This document shows positions 21,319 to 64,000 of a stretch of DNA of 64,000 bases, in pieces. The notes below the pieces were generated by a model, which made no database searches, had not been told where the DNA came from, and saw only the letters and a list, made by a program, of their open reading frames with translations. The DNA is taken from assembly GCA_964575955.1 (NCBI GenBank), contig CAZNTG010000006.1, forward strand, positions 384,001 to 448,000, read 5' to 3'. Origin of the DNA: an uncultured Thermoproteaceae archaeon. GTDB lineage: Archaea; Thermoproteota; Thermoprotei; Thermoproteales; Thermocladiaceae. Position 1 is the stretch's first letter. Each line of letters begins with the position of its first letter. Made by a program: the position numbers and the translations under genes.

Positions 21319-22422
21319 TTAGCTATATATTTTAATTACTCTATAAAAGTTATCTCTTTCAGCAGGTATTTGACCAATATCTCTAATAATTTTAACTATG
21401 TCCTCTCTAGTTAGTATTTTCATTTTAAATCCTGTTGATGGTATAACTTTCTCATTATATAATGTTCCTCCAAAATCATCTGCACCGTATAGTAGTGCTA
21501 TTTGTGCTATCTCTACACCATTTGTTAACCATGATGCCTGTATGTGTGGTATTAAATCTCTAAATACTATCCTAGCTGTTGCAACTATCTTTAGAAGCTC
21601 TATTGGTCCTGTTGGATATTTTAGATCTTTAACATACTTGTCTAGTTGTGTATTTCCAGGTTGGTAATTCCATGCTATGAATGAGTTGAATCCTCTAGTC
21701 TTTTCCTGTAATTTCAATATCTTGTATATATGTTCAGCTCTTTCCCAAATATTTTCAACATGTCCATACATCATCGTTGCAGATGTCTTAATACCTAGAC
21801 TATGTGCAACTTCCATAACTCTAATCCACGTGTTAGAATCAATTTTGGATGGTGATAATACTCTACGTACATTATCTACAAGAATTTCACCACCACCGCC
21901 AGGCATCGAGTCAAGTCCACTATTTTTCAATCTATCTAAAACTTCTCTATAACTCATTCTCTCTCTAACACTTAGATAATGAATTTCAAGTGGACTAAGA
22001 CCATGAATAGCTACATGTGGTAATGAATTTTTAATACTTTTAAACAAATCTTCAATATATTCAATAGTAACATCAGGATTAATACCACCTTGAACAAGAA
22101 CTTGCCTCACAGGACCATATACATAGTCTATATACTTCAAAATCTTAACAACATCATCAAAATTGAGAAGATAACCACTAGACTTATCACGCCAAAAAGC
22201 ACAAAACTTACAACGAATAACACAAACATCAGTATAATTCAAAATAACATTAACAACAAAAGTAGAAACATTACCAACAACACTAAGCCTAACAAAATGA
22301 GCAAACCTACCTAAAACATGAACATCAGTAAAAGTAAGAAAACGATAAACATCACAAACACCCCTAACACCCCTAACAAAAACATCCAACAACCTATCAA
22401 AATCACACTCCCAAACAACCAC
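21319..22422 (-). CDS. mqnC: CofH/MqnC-family radical SAM protein (probable cyclic dehypoxanthine futalosine synthase)
   Basis: NYT.VC...CKFCAF, QGG.NP, SMPGGGGEIL, ATMMYGH, QASW, GADDFGGTL. Confidence 0.75.
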   Translation of the reverse strand: MVVWECDFDRLLDVFVRGVRGVCDVYRFLTFTDVHVLGRFAHFVRLSVVGNVSTFVVNVILNYTDVCVIRCKFCAFWRDKSSGYLLNFDDVVKILKYIDYVYGPVRQVLVQGGINPDVTIEYIEDLFKSIKNSLPHVAIHGLSPLEIHYLSVRERMSYREVLDRLKNSGLDSMPGGGGEILVDNVRRVLSPSKIDSNTWIRVMEVAHSLGIKTSATMMYGHVENIWERAEHIYKILKLQEKTRGFNSFIAWNYQPGNTQLDKYVKDLKYPTGPIELLKIVATARIVFRDLIPHIQASWLTNGVEIAQIALLYGADDFGGTLYNEKVIPSTGFKMKILTREDIVKIIRDIGQIPAERDNFYRVIKIYS

Positions 22423-57818: not shown

Positions 57819-58265
57819 TTACTTCTTGAGTTTTGGAACTTCTGGTACTCCAAGCTTCTCTGGTTCGTGGCTTAGTACTGGTTCTTTGAGCTTTGCTGGG
57901 TCTGGTTCTGGATATTCTTGTGGTGCTTTTATTGATCCCCATGGTGTTGTTCTTATAACCATCTTAAATCTTAATACTTTTCCTGATCTGTAGATTACGG
58001 TCCACATTATTGAGTCTGTACCTCTCATTGGTACTAATCTACCTCCAAGTGGTGCAACATCTGTATAGTGTCTAATCTCGATTGCTCCCTGTGGACACAT
58101 CTTTGCACATGAGAAGCATTCCCAACACATGTCTGGCTCTATGTTATATGATTTTCCTGTTGTTTTGTCAAGGTGCATTAGATCGTTTGGACATATGTAG
58201 TTACATGCTGGTACTGCAAGTGCTTTACAACCGTCACATTTCTCTGGATTAACTACAGGGGGCAT
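57819..58265 (-). CDS. aprB: adenylylsulfate reductase beta subunit
   Basis: KCDGCK...AC.YICPNDLM, EPDMCWEC.SC.K.CPQGAI, WT...RSG...RFK..IRTTPWGS. Confidence 0.97.
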   Translation of the reverse strand: MPPVVNPEKCDGCKALAVPACNYICPNDLMHLDKTTGKSYNIEPDMCWECFSCAKMCPQGAIEIRHYTDVAPLGGRLVPMRGTDSIMWTVIYRSGKVLRFKMVIRTTPWGSIKAPQEYPEPDPAKLKEPVLSHEPEKLGVPEVPKLKK

Positions 58266-58372
58266 TGTTGTGATATGTGTAGTCTATTGCTTTTAAGCTT
58301 CTTCCTCTTCGTGTAAAGGAGACATGTGATGGTAATAGTTAAATGAATTAATCAAGATTTAGGGTATCAAGT

Positions 58373-60244
58373 ATGCCATATCCAACAGGTGTAGAAAAGG
58401 TAGAGTGTGACATTCTAATAATAGGAGGTGGAATGTCAGGATGTGGAGCTGCATATGAGGCAAAGTATTGGGGTAGAAAGCTAAAGGTAGTTCTCGTAGA
58501 GAAGGCAGCAACAGAGAGAAGTGGTGCAGTAGCTGCAGGATTATCAGCAATTAACCTATACCTAGGAATGAGATGGGGTGAGAATACACCAGAAGACTAT
58601 GTTAGATATGTGAGAAACGACTTGATGGGTATTGTTAGAGAAGACCTAGTATATGACGTAGCTAGACATGTAGACTCAACAGTACACCTATTCGAAGAGT
58701 GGGGTCTACCAATCTACAAGGATCCAAAAACTGGTAGATATCTAAGAGAGGGTAGATGGCAGGTACTGATATCAGGAGAGTCATACAAGCCAATTGTTGC
58801 AGAGGCAGCAAAGAAGGCTGTAGATGCACTATATGAGAGAGTATTCATAACACATCTCCTACCTGACAAGAACAATCCAAGAAGAGTAGCTGGAGCAATA
58901 GGATTTGGTGTTAGAGATGGAAAGCTCTACATATTCCTAGCAAAGGCAGTAATAATGGCAGCAGGAGGAGCAGTACACATATTCAGACCAAGATCACATG
59001 GTGAAGGTATGGGTAGAACATGGTATCCACCATGGGACAGTGGTAGCTCATATGCAATGATGATAATGATGGGTGCAGAGATGACACAGATGGAGAATAG
59101 ATTCGTACCAATGAGATTCAAGGACGGTTATGGACCAGTAGGTGCATACTTCCTATTCCTAAAGTGTAAGGCAACAAATGCAATGGGTGAAGACTACTTT
59201 GCAAAGGGTGTCGAGAAGTTAAAGCAGATGAAGGACAAGTATGGACCATATGTAGAAGCAACACCACTACCAACATGTCTAAGAAACCACATAATGCTAG
59301 AAGAATTGAAGGAGGGTAGAGGACCAATATTCATGAGACATGACTTAGCAATTAAGGAGGTAGCAGATCCAAAGGAGAGAGCAGCTAGAGAGAGATGGTG
59401 TTGGGAGGACTTCCTAGACATGACACCATCACAGGCACTATTATGGGCATGTATGAACATAGACCCAGCTGAGAAACCATCAGAGCTAATGGTAGCTGAG
59501 CCATACATCATGGGTTCACACGCAGGATGTGCAGGAGCATGGGTAAGCGGTCCAGAAGACATAGCACCACCAGAATACCAGTTCGCATATAACAGAATGA
59601 CAACAATCGAAGGACTATTCGCATGTGGTGACGCTGTAGGTGCATCAGCACACAAGTTCTCAAGCGGATCATTCACAGAGGGTAGAATCGCAGGTAAGTC
59701 TGCAGTAAGATTTGTAGTTGAGAAAGCAGCAGACTACAAGCCAGAGGTTGATGAACAGCTAATTGAGAATCTAAAGGTCAAGATATTTGAACCATTAGAG
59801 AGATATGAGAAGGGTAAGGCAACAACAACAAGACCAGACCTATCATTTGAGTACATACTACCACAGCAAGGATTAAGAAGACTACACAAGATAATGGACG
59901 AGTATGCAGCAGGATACTCAATGTGGTACACAACAAACGAGCCAATGCTACAGAGAGGTCTAGAGCTAGTACTAATGCTTAAGGAAGACCTTGAGAAGCT
60001 AGGTGCAAGAGACCTACACGACCTGATGAGATGTTGGGAGCTAGTACACAGAGTATGGACAGCAGAAGCACACATAAGACACATGCTATTTAGAAAAGAG
60101 ACAAGATGGCCAGGATACTACTATAGAGCAGACTATCCAAATGTTGATGACCAGAACTGGAAGTGCTTCGTAAACTCAGTATACGATCCAAAGACTGGTG
60201 AGTGGAAGCTATTCACAAGACCATACATACAGCTAGTACCATAA
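58373..60244 (+). CDS. aprA: adenylylsulfate reductase alpha subunit
   Basis: RSGAVA.GLSAIN.Y, GESYKPIVAEAAK, RFKDGYGPVGA, HKFSSGSFTEGR, ETRWPGYYYR.D. Confidence 0.98.
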   Translation: MPYPTGVEKVECDILIIGGGMSGCGAAYEAKYWGRKLKVVLVEKAATERSGAVAAGLSAINLYLGMRWGENTPEDYVRYVRNDLMGIVREDLVYDVARHVDSTVHLFEEWGLPIYKDPKTGRYLREGRWQVLISGESYKPIVAEAAKKAVDALYERVFITHLLPDKNNPRRVAGAIGFGVRDGKLYIFLAKAVIMAAGGAVHIFRPRSHGEGMGRTWYPPWDSGSSYAMMIMMGAEMTQMENRFVPMRFKDGYGPVGAYFLFLKCKATNAMGEDYFAKGVEKLKQMKDKYGPYVEATPLPTCLRNHIMLEELKEGRGPIFMRHDLAIKEVADPKERAARERWCWEDFLDMTPSQALLWACMNIDPAEKPSELMVAEPYIMGSHAGCAGAWVSGPEDIAPPEYQFAYNRMTTIEGLFACGDAVGASAHKFSSGSFTEGRIAGKSAVRFVVEKAADYKPEVDEQLIENLKVKIFEPLERYEKGKATTTRPDLSFEYILPQQGLRRLHKIMDEYAAGYSMWYTTNEPMLQRGLELVLMLKEDLEKLGARDLHDLMRCWELVHRVWTAEAHIRHMLFRKETRWPGYYYRADYPNVDDQNWKCFVNSVYDPKTGEWKLFTRPYIQLVP

Positions 60245-60369
60245 AAACAGAAGTCTAAACTACAAAAACTCTACATATATTTCAATCTTCATAATTTTCT
60301 TAATTACTAATCTTCTAGATATCTTTCTGAGTATTCTTTTTAAACCTCTAACATGACTATAATCTAGGT

Positions 60370-60765
60370 ATGAGTACAAGTCCTGAAGCTTATGTTTCAG
60401 AAGCAGCTATTCTAGATCTGAGTAAGGAGTTTGATGAGGAGTTGTATAAGGCATTTATTAAGAGGTATGGGATCGATTTTAAGGCATGTATGCAATGTGC
60501 GACATGTGTATCAGTATGTCCACTATCTGACATAGTTCCTGGAATGCCTAGACTAGACATGCTTCTTGCAGGTCTTGGACTTTTTAATGAGATTGCACGT
60601 AGATTATCACCATGGATATGTGATCAATGTATGGAATGTTCTAGAAATTGTCCACGTAGAGCAAATCCTGCTAAGATTCTTGCAGCTCTTAGAGAGATCT
60701 TAACAGCAATGTACGATCCTACTGGAATTACTAAGCGTGTAATTCTTGGTAGAGCTAAGAAGTAG
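60370..60765 (+). CDS. QmoC/HdrC-like 2x[4Fe-4S] soluble domain (stand-alone)
   Basis: CMQCATC...CPLS, PR..ML.A.LG, W.C.QC..CS..CPR.A.P..I.AALR. Confidence 0.85.
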   Translation: MSTSPEAYVSEAAILDLSKEFDEELYKAFIKRYGIDFKACMQCATCVSVCPLSDIVPGMPRLDMLLAGLGLFNEIARRLSPWICDQCMECSRNCPRRANPAKILAALREILTAMYDPTGITKRVILGRAKK

Positions 60766-60818
60766 GTTTAGTATTGATAAAACTAAAAAATAGTTTAGAC
60801 TTAACATCTACGAGTTAC

Positions 60819-63290
60819 ATGACTAAAGTTGGAGTTTATATATGTACTTGTAGAGCTGTTACAGAAGTTATAGACGTGAATAAGCTTGCTGAAGATGTTA
60901 AGAAGATTGAAGGTGTTGAACTTGTAAAATTCATAAAGTCATGCTACGACTATGATGAGATTATTAAAGATTTACAGGAGAAGAGGATTGAGCGTGTAGT
61001 AATTGCAGGTTGTTCTCCAAGATATGTTCTAGATATTGCAAGAGAGAGAATTACACTAGCAGTACCTGACATAAGTCCATTATGGATTGAGGTAGCACCA
61101 ATACGTGAACAGGCAGCATGGGCATTTAGAAATGATAGACAGAGAGCTCAAGAAGCTGCATTAACATACATAAAGGCATATGTATCGAGAGTAAAAGCTG
61201 CAGAATACATACCTAGAGAAGTTGAGGTTGAGAGAGTTAGAAGAGCATTAGTGATAGGTGCAGGTATTGCTGGACTTACAGCAGCTGTAGATTTAGCAGA
61301 TATGGGTATAGAAGTCATAGTTGTTGAGAAGAGACCATATGTAGGTGGTAAAGTCGTACAATTAGCAAGGTACTTCCCAAAGATGTGTCCACCATACTGT
61401 GGTATAGAGTTCATACTTGGAAGACTTAAAGCAAGAGCAAACCCACTCATAAAGATATACACAAATGCAGAAGTACTAGAAGTATATGGATCACCAGGAA
61501 AGTTCAAGGCTAAGATTAGAGTTAATCCAAGATATGTAGATCCTGAGAAGTGTTTAGCATGTGGTAAATGTAGTGAAGTATGTCCTGTAGAAGTACCAAA
61601 CGAGTTTGATTTTGGACTATCTAAGAGAAAGGCAATATACCTACCTCACGAACTTGCATGGCCATATGCACATGTTGTAGATCCTGAAAATTGTCTAGAA
61701 ATTAAGAATCCCGGATCATGTGGTAAGTGTATTGAAGTCTGTCAATCAGGTGCTATAAATCTGAAAGAGCAGCCTAGAGAATTTGAAGTTGAGGTTGGTG
61801 CTGTAATCGTAGCAACAGGATGGGAGCCTTACGATGCTAAGAAGCTTGAACATCTAGGATATGGAAAGTATCCAAATGTCATAACTAACGTACAGATGGA
61901 GAGACTACTAGCACCAAATGGACCGACTAAAGGTGAGGTTATAGTTCCAGGTCTTGGTAGAAAGCCTAGGAAGATAGTATTTATACAATGTGCAGGTCAG
62001 AGAGATGAGAATCATCTACCATACTGTAGTGCTGTATGCTGTGCAGCAACTGTGAAGCAGGCAATTACAATAGCTGAGAGATGTCCAGATACTCAAATCT
62101 ACATATTCTACATTGACGTAAGAACATTCGGACTCTACGAACTATTCTACAAACAGGCAGGTAAGTATCCAAACATATTCTTCATACGTGGCAGAGCTTG
62201 GAAAGTTGAGCAAGATCCAGCTACTGGAGAACTTGTAGTATATGCTGAAGATACAATACTTGGAAGAAAGGTCTCAGTTAGAGCTGACCTAGTAGTACTA
62301 GCTGTGGGTATGGTACCATCATTGAGAGTTAATCCACCATCATGGTATAAGTCAGGTGTTGGTAGATCATGGGAGCAGGAACTACTACAAATACCAAGAC
62401 ATCAGTACTTCGTTGAGAGTGACTACATATGCTTCCCAATGGAGACTAAGAGAACTGGAATATATGCATGTGGATGTGCTATGTGGCCAATGGATGTTCA
62501 GACTAGTGTAGCAACAGCACATGCAGCAGCTATGAGAGCTGCATCAGTAATACTTGGAAAGGCTAGAACAGAATACTCATATCTAACAGATCCAAACCAG
62601 ATAAAGATAGAGACTATAAAGTGTACACAATGTAAGAGATGTACTGAAGAATGTCCATTTGACACATACTCATTCGATGAACGTGGATATCCAAAACCTG
62701 ACCCATTGAAATGTAGAAGATGTGGTATATGTGTTGGTGCATGTCCAGCAGTTGCACTATCATTACCATATCACAACACTGAGCTAATAATGAGCATGAT
62801 TAAGAGTATAGATATCAAGTCTGACAAGCCACAGGTAATAGTGTTTGCATGTGTAAATGATGCATATGCATCACTAGACATAGCACTTAGACAAGGTAAG
62901 ACACTACCACCAGAAGTTGAGTTGGTAATACCTGTACCATGTATAGGTAGTGTAAACATGAGATGGGTAACTGATGCACTATCACTAGGATTTGACGGTA
63001 TACTACTACTAGGATGTAGAAGTGGCGAAGCAACAGCAACACAGCAATGCCACTTCATTAGAGGACCCGACTTAGAGAGAACTAGAATAGAGAACTTGAG
63101 AGATACATTACAGAAGATGATGATTGAACCAGAGAGAGTTAAACTTGTAGAGATAACATTAGAAGACTATAACAAGGTTGTGGAAGTAATACGTGACTTC
63201 GTTGAGCAGATAAAGAAGATGGGTCTAAACCCAATGAAGCAGTTTGCTGGAGGTGCTGGAATGGAGTACGGATTTGGATACACATTCTAA
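60819..63290 (+). CDS. HdrA-family flavoprotein, QmoA/QmoB mosaic with MvhD-like C-terminal domain
   Basis: GVYIC/AGCSPR N-domain, FAD motif, YFPKMCPPYCG, QCAG.RDENHLPYCS, ICFP.ET.RTGIY, CTQCKRCTEECPF, NDAY..C.GSVN..CHF; ATG 60819 likely start. Confidence 0.9.
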   Translation: MTKVGVYICTCRAVTEVIDVNKLAEDVKKIEGVELVKFIKSCYDYDEIIKDLQEKRIERVVIAGCSPRYVLDIARERITLAVPDISPLWIEVAPIREQAAWAFRNDRQRAQEAALTYIKAYVSRVKAAEYIPREVEVERVRRALVIGAGIAGLTAAVDLADMGIEVIVVEKRPYVGGKVVQLARYFPKMCPPYCGIEFILGRLKARANPLIKIYTNAEVLEVYGSPGKFKAKIRVNPRYVDPEKCLACGKCSEVCPVEVPNEFDFGLSKRKAIYLPHELAWPYAHVVDPENCLEIKNPGSCGKCIEVCQSGAINLKEQPREFEVEVGAVIVATGWEPYDAKKLEHLGYGKYPNVITNVQMERLLAPNGPTKGEVIVPGLGRKPRKIVFIQCAGQRDENHLPYCSAVCCAATVKQAITIAERCPDTQIYIFYIDVRTFGLYELFYKQAGKYPNIFFIRGRAWKVEQDPATGELVVYAEDTILGRKVSVRADLVVLAVGMVPSLRVNPPSWYKSGVGRSWEQELLQIPRHQYFVESDYICFPMETKRTGIYACGCAMWPMDVQTSVATAHAAAMRAASVILGKARTEYSYLTDPNQIKIETIKCTQCKRCTEECPFDTYSFDERGYPKPDPLKCRRCGICVGACPAVALSLPYHNTELIMSMIKSIDIKSDKPQVIVFACVNDAYASLDIALRQGKTLPPEVELVIPVPCIGSVNMRWVTDALSLGFDGILLLGCRSGEATATQQCHFIRGPDLERTRIENLRDTLQKMMIEPERVKLVEITLEDYNKVVEVIRDFVEQIKKMGLNPMKQFAGGAGMEYGFGYTF

Positions 63291-63417
63291 AAATAATTAT
63301 TTAAGGTATTAATAACACTATGATACATACTAATAAATTAAACATTCTATCTCTTTTCAGTTTCATATGTATCTCACATGTTAATATTTTAATAATGTAA
63401 AACAACTTCTACTCGGC

Positions 63418-64000
63418 ATGTCAACAGGAGACTTTATACCATACTACTCCTACTATGTTGATCCCGTACTAGTATTAATACTTGGTGCAATATGCTCAAT
63501 AATACCTGCAATAATATTGATAATAGGATTATATAGAATGTACCAATTTGTAAAACCATCACTTGGAGATCGTAGACAGAATGTTATTAAAGCATTTTTC
63601 TATACATTAATTGAAGAATTTATAATACATAGAAATCTTTCAAAATGTAGACCTGAATGGACTAGATGGATTTTACATCAGATGGTTCTATGGGGTATGG
63701 TTATTCTTGTCGGCTGTACAGGTTTTGACGCAATTGTCGATCATGAAGATATTCTCCTCTGTGGTCTTGCAAATCCATACCTAAAACCTATTGCTGAAGC
63801 AATGTTACCACCATATCTACACAATGTTCCTCTAAGTGCTGCAATTGCTGCATGTGGTAGAGTTATGCATACACTTGCAGACCCTGTAAAGATTCTATAC
63901 AACATTGGTGGTATATTACTAGTAGCTGGATGTATAGGTCTTATTGTTAGAAGATTTGTAAATAAGGATGCTCGTGAATGTGTTATAGCATACGACTGGT
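63418..64000 (+). CDS. QmoC-like membrane cytochrome b domain (runs off window)
   Basis: my translation: TM helix, EEFIIHRNLSKC....RWILHQMVLWG, DPVKILYNIGG; follows Qmo genes. Confidence 0.75.
   Translation, partial: MSTGDFIPYYSYYVDPVLVLILGAICSIIPAIILIIGLYRMYQFVKPSLGDRRQNVIKAFFYTLIEEFIIHRNLSKCRPEWTRWILHQMVLWGMVILVGCTGFDAIVDHEDILLCGLANPYLKPIAEAMLPPYLHNVPLSAAIAACGRVMHTLADPVKILYNIGGILLVAGCIGLIVRRFVNKDARECVIAYDW

What the first reader, a model, noticed from the sequence alone, without database searches (positions are those of the whole stretch)
60370..64000. Non-canonical Qmo complex: single QmoB-A-B mosaic subunit flanked by a split QmoC
Canonical QmoABC has two HdrA-like flavoproteins and one QmoC (Fe-S plus membrane). 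Here one ~820-aa chain has a QmoB-type N-domain, a QmoA-type core (YFPK.CPP.CG, ferredoxin insert, RDENHLPYCS) and a QmoB-type tail (ICFP.ET.RTGIY, CTQCKRCTEECPF, MvhD-like), with only one FAD site. The QmoC Fe-S and membrane parts are separate genes on either side. Qmo is required for APS reduction and is rare in crenarchaea. Inference: a simplified or pre-duplication electron-transfer module in a possibly new sulfate-reducing crenarchaeon, with MqnC supplying menaquinone.
Basis: partly seen in the sequence, partly recalled or inferred. Interest (0 to 1): 0.8.

Follow-up and report, generated by a model that had tools for sequence, protein, structure and literature searches.

The report
Single-flavoprotein Qmo-like module beside APS reductase
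Next to its APS reductase genes this hydrothermal-vent archaeon carries an unusual three-gene version of the Qmo electron-transfer complex, with one complete HdrA-MvhD flavoprotein instead of the usual QmoA plus QmoB and with QmoC divided into two genes; it is a real, conserved variant, not a patchwork gene.

Summary
At 60370-64272 lie three co-directional genes: a 131-aa HdrC-like Fe-S protein (the N-part of QmoC), an 823/838-aa flavoprotein, and a 284-aa NarI-like membrane protein (the C-part of QmoC). They follow aprA, with aprB divergent. The same order recurs in six related Thermoproteales genomes.

No second HdrA/QmoA-like gene exists in this 94.7%-complete genome. A second assembler's contig reproduces the locus.

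The "QmoB-A-B mosaic" reading is not supported. The protein is collinear with solved HdrA over residues 18-675, plus a fused MvhD domain at 685-824. It keeps every cofactor motif that canonical QmoA and QmoB each retain only in part. In trees of N-domain, core and tail it forms its own clade, outside canonical QmoA and QmoB.

Whether it split off before the QmoA/QmoB duplication is unresolved (AU p 0.49).

The genome also has sat, dsrABC, two dsrMK-like pairs, a dsrN-like gene and menaquinone genes.

Best reading: a homodimeric HdrA-MvhD with separate HdrC-like and cytochrome-b subunits links menaquinol to AprAB. This is a new variant of a known kind.

The parts
57819..58265 (-). aprB, APS reductase beta subunit (148 aa), transcribed divergently from aprA
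   Evidence: TIGR02060 aprB 199.1 bits against a cut-off of 135.65; PF12139 E 7.1e-27. The divergent orientation is conserved in L011, L012 and L017.
58373..60244 (+). aprA, APS reductase alpha subunit (623 aa)
   Evidence: TIGR02061 aprA 1003.7 bits against a cut-off of 641.75, profile positions 1-616 of 616.
60370..60765 (+). HdrC-like Fe-S subunit, equal to the N-terminal module of QmoC (131 aa), with two CxxCxxCxxxCP motifs
   Evidence: NF038018 qmoC model positions 4-99, 86.8 bits (cut-off 300); HdrC TIGR03290 45.2 bits. It aligns with the N-part of fused QmoCs and ends at the linker before TM1.
60774..63290 (+). HdrA-MvhD fusion flavoprotein. It is 838 aa from the TTG at 60774; the likely true start is the ATG at 60819, giving 823 aa. 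It is the only HdrA/Qmo-type flavoprotein in the genome.
   Evidence: 5odc_A residues 5-645 against query 18-675, E 2.6e-130. NF040770 HdrA2 profile 1-773 of 777, 639.7 bits (cut-off 1100). No paralogue was found by tblastn.
60819..61223 (+). HdrA N-terminal domain (residues about 16-150) with conserved Cys 24, 26, 57, 80
   Evidence: Aligned to the 5odc_A N-terminus with the Cys conserved. C24 and C80 are conserved in QmoB 18/18 and typical HdrA 6/6; the domain is absent from QmoA.
61245..61358 (+). The single FAD-binding Rossmann motif (residues 158-195, VIGAGIAGLTAA...)
   Evidence: Pfam Pyr_redox_2, NAD_binding_8 and FAD_binding_2 all hit only here.
61521..61778 (+). Inserted ferredoxin domain (residues about 250-335, eight Cys, two [4Fe-4S] motifs)
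   Evidence: Fer4 at 254-274. The eight Cys are present in 6/6 of this clade and 13-17 of 17 QmoA; they are absent (gap) in 18/18 QmoB.
62571..62813 (+). C-terminal ferredoxin domain (residues about 600-680, eight Cys)
   Evidence: Fer4_7 at 616-659. The Cys are present in QmoB 18/18 and absent (gap) in QmoA 17/17.
62835..63224 (+). MvhD/FlpD-like domain (residues 688-817; four conserved Cys at 693, 723, 748, 759)
   Evidence: PF02662 E 3.6e-35. MvhD chains of 7bkb, 8rvu and 5odc match query 684-824.
63418..64000 (+). NarI/HdrE-like membrane subunit, equal to the C-terminal module of QmoC. It is 284 aa in full and runs on to window position 64272, beyond the window end.
   Evidence: The full ORF is L003 7418-8272. 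PF02665 E 2.5e-7. It is collinear with the membrane part of fused QmoCs. His 71, 87, 243 and 261 lie in conserved motifs, and there are about five hydrophobic segments.

Best explanation
This is a Qmo-like, quinone-linked electron-transfer module dedicated to the adjacent APS reductase. It is built from three separate proteins.

Proposed path: the membrane subunit (a NarI/HdrE-type cytochrome b with four conserved His, enough for two bis-His hemes) exchanges electrons with menaquinol. The 131-aa HdrC-like protein, with two [4Fe-4S] motifs, relays them. One complete HdrA-MvhD flavoprotein passes them on to AprB/AprA. That flavoprotein carries FAD, Cys motifs for six [4Fe-4S] clusters and the MvhD Cys set.

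The flavoprotein probably acts as a homodimer. It would then fill the place that the QmoA-QmoB heterodimer fills in canonical QmoABC. As proposed for QmoABC, a low-potential co-donor (ferredoxin or a hydrogenase docking at the MvhD or ferredoxin domains) may be needed for confurcation.

Shown here: gene content, domain and cofactor-motif completeness, absence of any second HdrA/QmoA gene and of HdrB, conservation of the cluster, and the presence of the rest of the sulfate-reduction gene set.

Inferred: complex formation, the homodimer, the direction of electron flow, and the dependence on menaquinone.
For: Architecture:
- Collinear with HdrA plus MvhD.
- All cofactor Cys are kept.
- Both QmoC modules are recognised by the qmoC model. 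They align collinearly with fused QmoCs, with conserved His and CxxCxxCxxxCP motifs. The membrane part hits PF02665.

Linkage:
- The order aprB(-) aprA qmoC-N hdrA-mvhD qmoC-membrane is kept in L010-L014, L017 and L096, at 70-93% protein identity across two genera.
- In 72 of 80 loci fetched with this protein, the homologous position holds a QmoA-like plus a QmoB-like gene. Of the rest, 6 are this type and 2 are a Desulfobaccales type.

Sole flavoprotein:
- tblastn of the genome finds no other HdrA/QmoA-like gene.
- G061, G069, G071 and G073 each have one match. G068 and G072 have two, which are pieces of one gene at contig ends.
- Only two CCG-domain proteins exist, both DsrK-like, so there is no HdrB partner.

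Pathway:
- sat is over its cut-off. dsrA, dsrB, dsrC, dsrK, a NarI-like 333-aa neighbour and a dsrN-like gene are present.
- MqnC-like, UbiD-like and MenA-like genes are present.

Phylogeny:
- The protein belongs to the same supergroup as canonical QmoA/QmoB (support 100/99), apart from typical HdrA and the Vulcanisaeta-like type II.
- AprA shows a parallel deep position.

Homodimer:
- Complex prediction on the core (residues 134-585, two copies) scored 0.77, best of 3 controls 0.00.
- The mark was reached by 20 of 30 proteins solved as pairs of one chain and by 1 of 23 solved as single chains.
- The runs agree in at least 80% of contacts, and the partner pLDDT is at least 82.
- My own alignment was used, so these counts hold only roughly.
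- HdrA homodimers are solved, so the pass may reflect likeness rather than binding.

Literature (passages read): QmoABC is required for sulfate reduction, QmoA contacts AprAB, and confurcation has been proposed (PMC3333476).
Against: - There is no experimental datum for this lineage; all members are MAGs.
- The scores against curated equivalog models are below cut-off: qmoC 86.8 and 52.2 against 300, and HdrA2 639.7 against 1100. It is a member of none of these named families.
- Close undivided relatives work in other contexts. One example is beside an FrhB/FpoF-like gene in an Archaeoglobi-like MAG (L120). The fold alone therefore does not imply Apr coupling.
- aprB is transcribed divergently, so a single operon is not shown.
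- Confamilial genomes carry aprA without any HdrA-like gene: g4 0 of 4, and G062 none. Apr can therefore exist in this family without such a partner.
- Heme binding, quinone type and direction (reduction or oxidation) cannot be read from the sequence.
Confidence: 0.62

Rival explanations
1. Secondary simplification or mosaic. The gene arose from a canonical qmoA-qmoB pair by recombination or fusion (B-type N-domain, A-type core, B-type tail), and qmoC was secondarily split and one half moved.
For: By identity the core is closest to QmoA (42-56%) and the tail to QmoB (42-51%). The AU test does not reject a tree in which the core sits on the QmoA side of the duplication (delta lnL 0.54, p 0.488).
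Against: - The chain is collinear with HdrA plus MvhD, with no junction.
- It is never nested within QmoA (clade 97/95) or QmoB (clade 100/100). It is also outside the QmoB+P6 clade in the tail (SH-aLRT 99) and the N-domain (99).
- Many other undivided HdrA-MvhD proteins of the same supergroup carry the same full motif set (18 of 18 rows for nearly all Cys). The undivided state therefore needs no fusion.
- The N-domain groups weakly with typical HdrA, not with QmoB.
Confidence: 0.1
2. A general HdrA-MvhD electron-bifurcating module that links a hydrogenase or ferredoxin to the quinone pool or to DsrC. It would not be specifically the donor to AprAB, and its position beside aprBA would be incidental or one of several roles.
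For: Relatives of the same supergroup sit beside FrhB/FpoF-like genes rather than apr (L120). The genome has several [NiFe]-hydrogenase large-subunit matches. MvhD domains dock hydrogenases in the solved Hdr-Mvh complexes (molecule names).
Against: The adjacency to aprBA is conserved over two genera down to 70% identity. No HdrB or CCG partner lies nearby. The flanking genes match the qmoC model better than HdrC (86.8 against 45.2 bits). In canonical loci the same position holds qmoABC beside aprBA.
Confidence: 0.15
3. The module is the same, but it runs in the oxidative direction (sulfite to APS, with electrons delivered to menaquinone), as in sulfur oxidisers or disproportionators that use Sat-AprAB-Qmo in reverse.
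For: Qmo and AprAB are reversible and are used oxidatively in some bacteria (passages in PMC10504309 and PMC3333476). Sequence alone does not fix the direction.
Against: Archaea with the Dsr pathway are so far described as reductive only (passage in PMC10591310). No dsrEFH or dsrL search was run here, so this point is untested.
Confidence: 0.1
4. Assembly artefact: a collapsed or chimeric qmoA-qmoB.
For: None found.
Against: The same single gene of 821-831 aa is found in several separately assembled MAGs (L010/L091, L011/L092, L012/L093, L096). A Logan contig of 14,962 nt is identical over 60208-64000 without joints. The ORF is uninterrupted and collinear with HdrA.
Confidence: 0.01

Closest known systems
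Canonical (type I) QmoABC of sulfate reducers and some sulfur oxidisers (Desulfovibrio, Archaeoglobus, Chlorobaculum)
   Same: It sits next to aprBA. It has HdrA-derived flavoprotein(s), a C-terminal ferredoxin plus MvhD-like domain, an HdrC-like Fe-S module and a dihaem-type membrane module. It belongs to the same phylogenetic supergroup (100/99). It shares supergroup-specific residues such as C205/C209 with QmoA and C553 with QmoB.
   Different: It has one flavoprotein instead of two. That protein keeps both the inserted ferredoxin domain (lost in QmoB, 0/18) and the N-domain, C-terminal ferredoxin and MvhD (absent from QmoA). QmoC is two polypeptides whose genes flank the flavoprotein gene. 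aprB is divergent. It branches outside the QmoA and QmoB clades.
Type II Qmo of 'Ca. Vulcanisaeta moutnovskia' and Ammonifex (Chernyh 2020, not held; known only from passages in PMC10504309 and PMC8477390)
   Same: It is an archaeal, Thermoproteales-family Qmo-like system with HdrA-like subunits.
   Different: The confamilial genomes that I take to be of this kind (g5, g3, g7; unnamed) carry a separate mvhD, a QmoA-like 444-459-aa gene, an HdrA-like 648-686-aa gene and a QmoC. These lie far from aprA (for example 630 kb away in G082) and are 32-41% identical to the protein here. They fall in the other major clade, with typical HdrA.
HdrA2 (HdrA-MvhD fusion) of Methanosarcina, NCBIfam NF040770, and solved HdrA of HdrABC-MvhAGD (5odc, 7bkb, 8rvu)
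   Same: The domain order is the same end to end: N-domain, FAD/thioredoxin-reductase-like domain with inserted ferredoxin, C-terminal ferredoxin, then MvhD. A homodimer is predicted.
   Different: There is no HdrB or HdrC heterodisulfide-reductase partner in the genome. The score is below the equivalog cut-off (639.7 against 1100). The partners are QmoC-like modules and AprAB.
Undivided HdrA-MvhD proteins of the same supergroup (P0006 of Archaeoglobus veneficus and relatives; Desulfobaccales L015/L016)
   Same: They are single-chain proteins of 764-802 aa with the full motif set, 39-52% identical in core and tail.
   Different: Their contexts differ. L120 sits beside an FrhB/FpoF-like gene. 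L015 sits beside an AprA-like paralogue plus AprB and a 193-aa HdrC-like protein, with no membrane gene seen.

Membership tests
QmoB (canonical, type I) | HdrA-like FAD domain followed by a 2x[4Fe-4S] ferredoxin domain and an MvhD-like domain | tested here: met
   Pfam and PDB matches. The Cys of the C-terminal ferredoxin and MvhD are shared with 18/18 QmoB.
QmoB (canonical, type I) | Falls within the QmoB clade and pairs with an adjacent QmoA | tested here: not met
   It is outside the QmoB clade in core (100/100 clade), tail and N-domain. There is no QmoA gene in the locus or the genome. It keeps the inserted ferredoxin domain that 18/18 QmoB lack.
QmoA (canonical, type I) | Short (about 405-445 aa) FAD core with inserted ferredoxin, without N-domain, C-terminal ferredoxin or MvhD | tested here: not met
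   The protein is 823 aa with all extra domains. It is outside the QmoA clade (97/95).
QmoC (NF038018) | One polypeptide joining an HdrC-like 2x[4Fe-4S] domain to a haem-b membrane domain, scoring over the 300-bit cut-off | tested here: not met
   There are two genes separated by 2.5 kb, scoring 86.8 and 52.2 bits.
QmoC (NF038018) | Two CxxCxxCxxxCP motifs, and conserved His pairs in the transmembrane helices | tested here: met
   Both motifs are in the 131-aa protein. H71, H87, H243 and H261 are aligned with conserved His of fused QmoCs. Haem binding itself is not testable here.
HdrA / HdrA2 (NF040770, NF041778) | Full HdrA domain order with FAD and six [4Fe-4S] Cys sets (plus MvhD for HdrA2) | tested here: met
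   Profile positions 1-773 of 777. 5odc_A residues 5-645 of 654.
HdrA / HdrA2 (NF040770, NF041778) | Equivalog score, and partnership with HdrBC for heterodisulfide reduction | tested here: not met
   639.7 bits against a cut-off of 1100. The only CCG-domain proteins in the genome are two DsrK-like ones.
Dissimilatory APS reductase AprBA | Scores over the TIGR02061 and TIGR02060 cut-offs | tested here: met
   1003.7 against 641.75, and 199.1 against 135.65.
Qmo function (electron donor to AprAB, quinone-linked) | Physical interaction with AprAB, and hemes reducible by menaquinol | not testable with these tools
   Only conserved adjacency to aprBA is shown.

The most novel reading that the evidence does not exclude
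This small hydrothermal Thermoproteales clade preserves the undivided, pre-duplication state of the canonical Qmo complex. In that state a homodimeric HdrA-MvhD works with still-separate HdrC-like and HdrE/NarI-like subunits, co-evolving with a deep-branching AprBA. It would be a living intermediate between methanogen-type Hdr modules and QmoABC. It would also show that one kind of flavoprotein is enough to couple the quinone pool to APS reduction.
Probability: 0.3. Interest if true: 0.75.

Novelty: new variant of a known kind. Interest (0 to 1): 0.55.

Why it matters
QmoABC is essential for sulfate respiration, yet the separate roles of QmoA and QmoB, and whether confurcation is needed, remain unsettled (passages in PMC3333476). 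A natural system does the job with one complete HdrA-MvhD subunit and unfused QmoC modules, in a hyperthermophile-type lineage. It offers a simpler and probably more stable target for biochemistry and cryo-EM. It also gives a calibration point for how the Hdr modules were reshuffled into Qmo.

It adds a third state of APS-reductase coupling within one archaeal family: no partner, type II Qmo, or this form. That bears on how often archaea acquired sulfate reduction.

Tried and rejected
- Chernyh et al. 2020 is not held. Supplements of PMC10504309 are closed. Its Qmo synteny figure may already show this arrangement.
- Five full-text searches and passages of PMC10504309, PMC8477390, PMC10591310, PMC3333476, PMC11237513 and PMC9872577 gave no description of a single-HdrA Qmo with a split QmoC. 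PMC8477390 does mention Nitrososphaeria MAGs with only QmoB and QmoC.
- No RNA holder was listed by the look-up of sequencing runs, so nothing can be said on expression. Run X2 gave only short low-depth pieces, with parts of the stretch uncovered.
- High G+C as a sign of a transferred island: rejected. aprA, sat, dsrA, dsrB, dsrK and the hdrA-like gene, at three loci, all lie in the 88th-99th percentiles of 625 long ORFs.
- The AU test to prove 'pre-duplication' was inconclusive.
- The tail and N-domain trees are 'quick' trees only, and the N-domain has 137 columns and poor resolution.
- Type I sequences in the trees come from the 80 best of 392 loci, and 19 of those loci were used, so sampling is biased towards relatives of the query. 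No named methanogen HdrA could be added. Typical HdrA of other Thermoproteia served as outgroup.
- A full-length homodimer (1646 residues) exceeds the limit of complex prediction, so only the core was folded.
- The word-based search with the membrane subunit found only 9 proteins. That search is insensitive, so rarity of split QmoC is not proven.


Full report
**What is there**

The window is G000:C6:384001-448000. The genome is 1.52 Mb in 15 contigs, about 33% G+C, 94.7% complete and 0.5% contaminated.

From 57.8 kb onward the ORFs are as follows:

| Gene | Window coordinates | Strand | Length |
|---|---|---|---|
| aprB | 57819-58265 | - | 148 aa |
| aprA | 58373-60244 | + | 623 aa |
| Fe-S protein | 60370-60765 | + | 131 aa |
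| flavoprotein | 60774 (TTG) or 60819 (ATG) to 63290 | + | 838 or 823 aa |
| membrane protein | 63418-64272 (runs past the window end) | + | 284 aa |

Downstream come unrelated genes: a small protein on the minus strand, a RadA-like gene and others. No further qmo gene follows.

AprA and AprB pass their curated cut-offs: 1003.7 against 641.75 bits, and 199.1 against 135.65 bits.

**The flanking genes are the two halves of QmoC**

- The NCBIfam qmoC model matches the 131-aa protein over model positions 4-99 (86.8 bits). It matches the membrane protein over positions 152-297.
- In an alignment with fused QmoCs from fetched loci, the small protein ends at the linker before the first transmembrane helix, and the membrane protein begins there.
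- Both CxxCxxCxxxCP motifs are present.
- His 71, 87, 243 and 261 lie in the motifs conserved in fused QmoCs. About five hydrophobic segments are seen.
- The full membrane protein hits Pfam Nitrate_red_gam (E 2.5e-7).
- The split is not a frameshift, because the 2.5-kb flavoprotein gene lies between the halves.

**The flavoprotein is a complete HdrA fused to MvhD, not a mosaic**

- It aligns in one piece with solved HdrA: 5odc_A residues 5-645 of 654 against query 18-675, E 2.6e-130. Four other HdrA structures align likewise. Residues 684-824 align with MvhD chains.
- The HdrA2 (HdrA-MvhD) model is matched from position 1 to 773 of 777.
- There is one Rossmann/FAD site, at residues 156-204.

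I aligned 80 sequences: this protein and 5 relatives; 18 QmoA and 18 QmoB from canonical loci; 18 other undivided HdrA-MvhD; one Desulfobaccales protein; and 19 typical HdrA or type II proteins of other Thermoproteia.

| Feature | Canonical QmoA | Canonical QmoB | This protein and relatives |
|---|---|---|---|
| N-domain | absent | present | present |
| C205/C209 pair | 17/17 | 0/18 | 6/6 |
| Inserted ferredoxin domain (eight Cys) | 13-17 of 17 | 0/18 (gap) | 6/6 |
| C553 | absent (gap) | 18/18 | 6/6 |
| C-terminal ferredoxin | absent | 18/18 | 6/6 |
| MvhD Cys | absent | 18/18 | 6/6 |

Almost all other undivided proteins of the group also carry everything. A complete protein therefore resembles QmoA in the middle and QmoB at the ends.

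**Segment-wise trees**

*Core (query 159-578, 401 columns, careful IQ-TREE)*
- A supergroup (support 100/99) separates from typical HdrA and the type II proteins.
- Inside it, this clade (6 rows, 100/100) is sister (90/75) to a clade (99/93). That clade is made of QmoB (18 rows, 100/100) plus [the A. veneficus-type undivided group (7 rows) + QmoA (18 rows, 97/95)].
- The AU test does not reject holding this clade together with QmoA and the veneficus-type group (delta lnL 0.54, p 0.488). The order of branching relative to the duplication is therefore open.

*Tail (600-824, quick tree)*
- This clade (SH-aLRT 99) lies outside the clade (99) of QmoB plus the veneficus-type group.

*N-domain (16-150, 137 columns, quick tree)*
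- This clade is on a long branch, outside the QmoB plus veneficus-type clade (99). It groups weakly (67) with typical HdrA.

The three segments agree: it is one lineage, nested in neither QmoA nor QmoB.

**It is real and conserved**

- The search for related loci kept 80 loci out of 392 relatives. Six of them (L010-L014, L017; Thermoproteota or Thermoproteales MAGs, 86-93% identical) show the same order, as far as their contigs reach.
- L096 (G061, another genus of the same family, 70% identical) does too.
- Of the other loci, 72 of 80 carry a QmoA-like plus a QmoB-like gene, some fragmented and one cut by a contig end. Two (L015, L016, Desulfobaccales) carry a single HdrA-MvhD beside an AprA-like paralogue, AprB and an HdrC-like protein.
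- tblastn of the whole genome finds no other HdrA/QmoA-like gene.
- In a search of 120 genomes of the class, genus g1 has the gene in 5 of 6 genomes besides G000; the miss is 69% complete. Genus g2 has it in 1 of 1. Each has a single copy or two pieces of one copy.
- A 14,962-nt contig from another assembler is identical over 60208-64000 without joints. Its run may be the source sample.

**Family context**

- aprA occurs in 25 of 31 genomes of the family, G000 included. The partner differs between genera.
- Genus g5 and some g3 and g7 genomes have a separate mvhD, a QmoA-like gene (444-459 aa), an HdrA-like gene (648-686 aa) and a QmoC, far from aprA. I take this to be the published 'type II'.
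- g4 (0 of 4) and G062 have no HdrA-like match. This recalls the published statement that Caldivirga maquilingensis lacks qmoABC (passage in PMC3333476).
- The AprA tree puts this clade (97) in an unresolved trichotomy with confamilial AprA (100) and with Archaeoglobi plus bacteria (95). That parallels the flavoprotein tree.

**The rest of the pathway**

- sat is over its cut-off.
- dsrA (470 aa) and dsrB (424 aa) are divergent. dsrC, dsrK and a 333-aa NarI-like neighbour are present, along with a cobyrinate-diamide-synthase-like (dsrN-type) gene and a uroporphyrinogen methyltransferase.
- MenA-like and UbiD-like genes lie in one locus with these.
- A second DsrK-like gene lies on C15.
- Three MqnC-family genes exist, one of them in the window at 21334-22344 (419.4 bits, cut-off 428.1).
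- There are several [NiFe]-hydrogenase matches.
- There is no HdrB: the only CCG-domain proteins are the two DsrK-like ones.

**Mechanism proposed**

Electrons would pass from menaquinol to the cytochrome-b subunit, then to the HdrC-like subunit, then to the HdrA-MvhD dimer, and then to AprB/AprA. A low-potential co-donor is possible, as proposed for QmoABC (passages in PMC3333476).

The homodimer is inferred from HdrA structures and from a fold of the core. Complex prediction on residues 134-585 in two copies gave:
- score 0.77, best of 3 controls 0.00;
- the mark was reached by 20 of 30 proteins solved as pairs of one chain, and by 1 of 23 solved as single chains;
- the runs agree in at least 80% of contacts, and pLDDT is at least 82;
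- my own alignment was used, so these counts hold only roughly;
- a like complex is solved, so the pass may be from likeness.

**Novelty**

The literature I could read describes four cases: type I and type II Qmo, QmoAB-HdrBC, AprM, and MAGs with only QmoB and QmoC (PMC10504309, PMC8477390; passages only). It does not describe a single complete HdrA-MvhD flanked by the two QmoC modules beside aprBA (searches). Chernyh 2020 and the supplements could not be seen.

I rate it a new variant of a known kind. Its members are few: five protein clusters at 70% identity or more, after which identity drops to 45%.

Noticed in passing
P0006-P0009, P0012, P0013, P0015; L120 (G121:C68): The Archaeoglobus veneficus-type undivided HdrA-MvhD group is discordant between segments. 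Its core is sister to QmoA (98/96). Its tail and N-domain are nested among QmoB, next to Archaeoglobi QmoB. This group, rather than the window's protein, may be a true QmoA/QmoB chimera or a product of gene conversion. In L120 it sits beside an FrhB/FpoF-like gene.
   Followed up: partly
L015, L016 (Desulfobaccales MAGs): An AprA-like paralogue (NF005331 over cut-off, TIGR02061 under it), AprB, a single 790-aa HdrA-MvhD and a 193-aa HdrC-like protein lie in a row. No membrane gene was seen. This is a bacterial single-flavoprotein arrangement.
   Followed up: partly
Window 57819-60244: aprB is transcribed divergently from aprA, with 107 bases between them. Every canonical locus examined had co-directional aprBA. 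The divergent order is kept in L011, L012 and L017.
   Followed up: partly
G078, G081, G082, G083, G089, G090 (same family, genus g5): Open frames of 1129-1260 aa match the query in permuted order: core 141-575, then N-domain 3-230, then 322-800. They look like fused QmoA-like plus HdrA-MvhD-like double proteins. Compare the double-HdrA fusions described in PMC11237513.
   Followed up: no
G000:C8:35962-55895: Six long ORFs have 44-51% G+C (GC3 45-63%), against a genome median of 33% (GC3 20%). This could be foreign DNA, a mis-binned piece or a recent transfer.
   Followed up: no
G000:C15:14731-17442 (L142 731-3442): A second DsrK-like protein (547 aa, 306 bits to the DsrK model) follows a 344-aa protein of no known family. 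It may be a second DsrMK-type pair.
   Followed up: partly
G000:C6:250954-262198 (L008): The dsr locus is flanked by UbiD-like (SCO4490-type) and MenA-like menaquinone genes and by a uroporphyrinogen-III methyltransferase. dsrA and dsrB are divergent, like aprB and aprA.
   Followed up: partly
G000:C6:869-1111, C1:863-1108, C6:620458-620964, C5:18339-18869: [NiFe]-hydrogenase large-subunit pieces lie at contig ends in matching pairs. This suggests a duplicated hydrogenase gene that broke the assembly.
   Followed up: no
G074:C23:21932-23824; G084:C9; G085:C4: aprA in some confamilial genomes carries in-frame stops (7 in G074; 1 each in pieces of G084 and G085). These are possible pseudogenes or poor assemblies.
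   Followed up: no
Window 63418-64272, residues about 110-150 of the membrane subunit: A loop insertion between the second and third hydrophobic segments is absent from fused QmoCs. It contains two Cys and two His.
   Followed up: no
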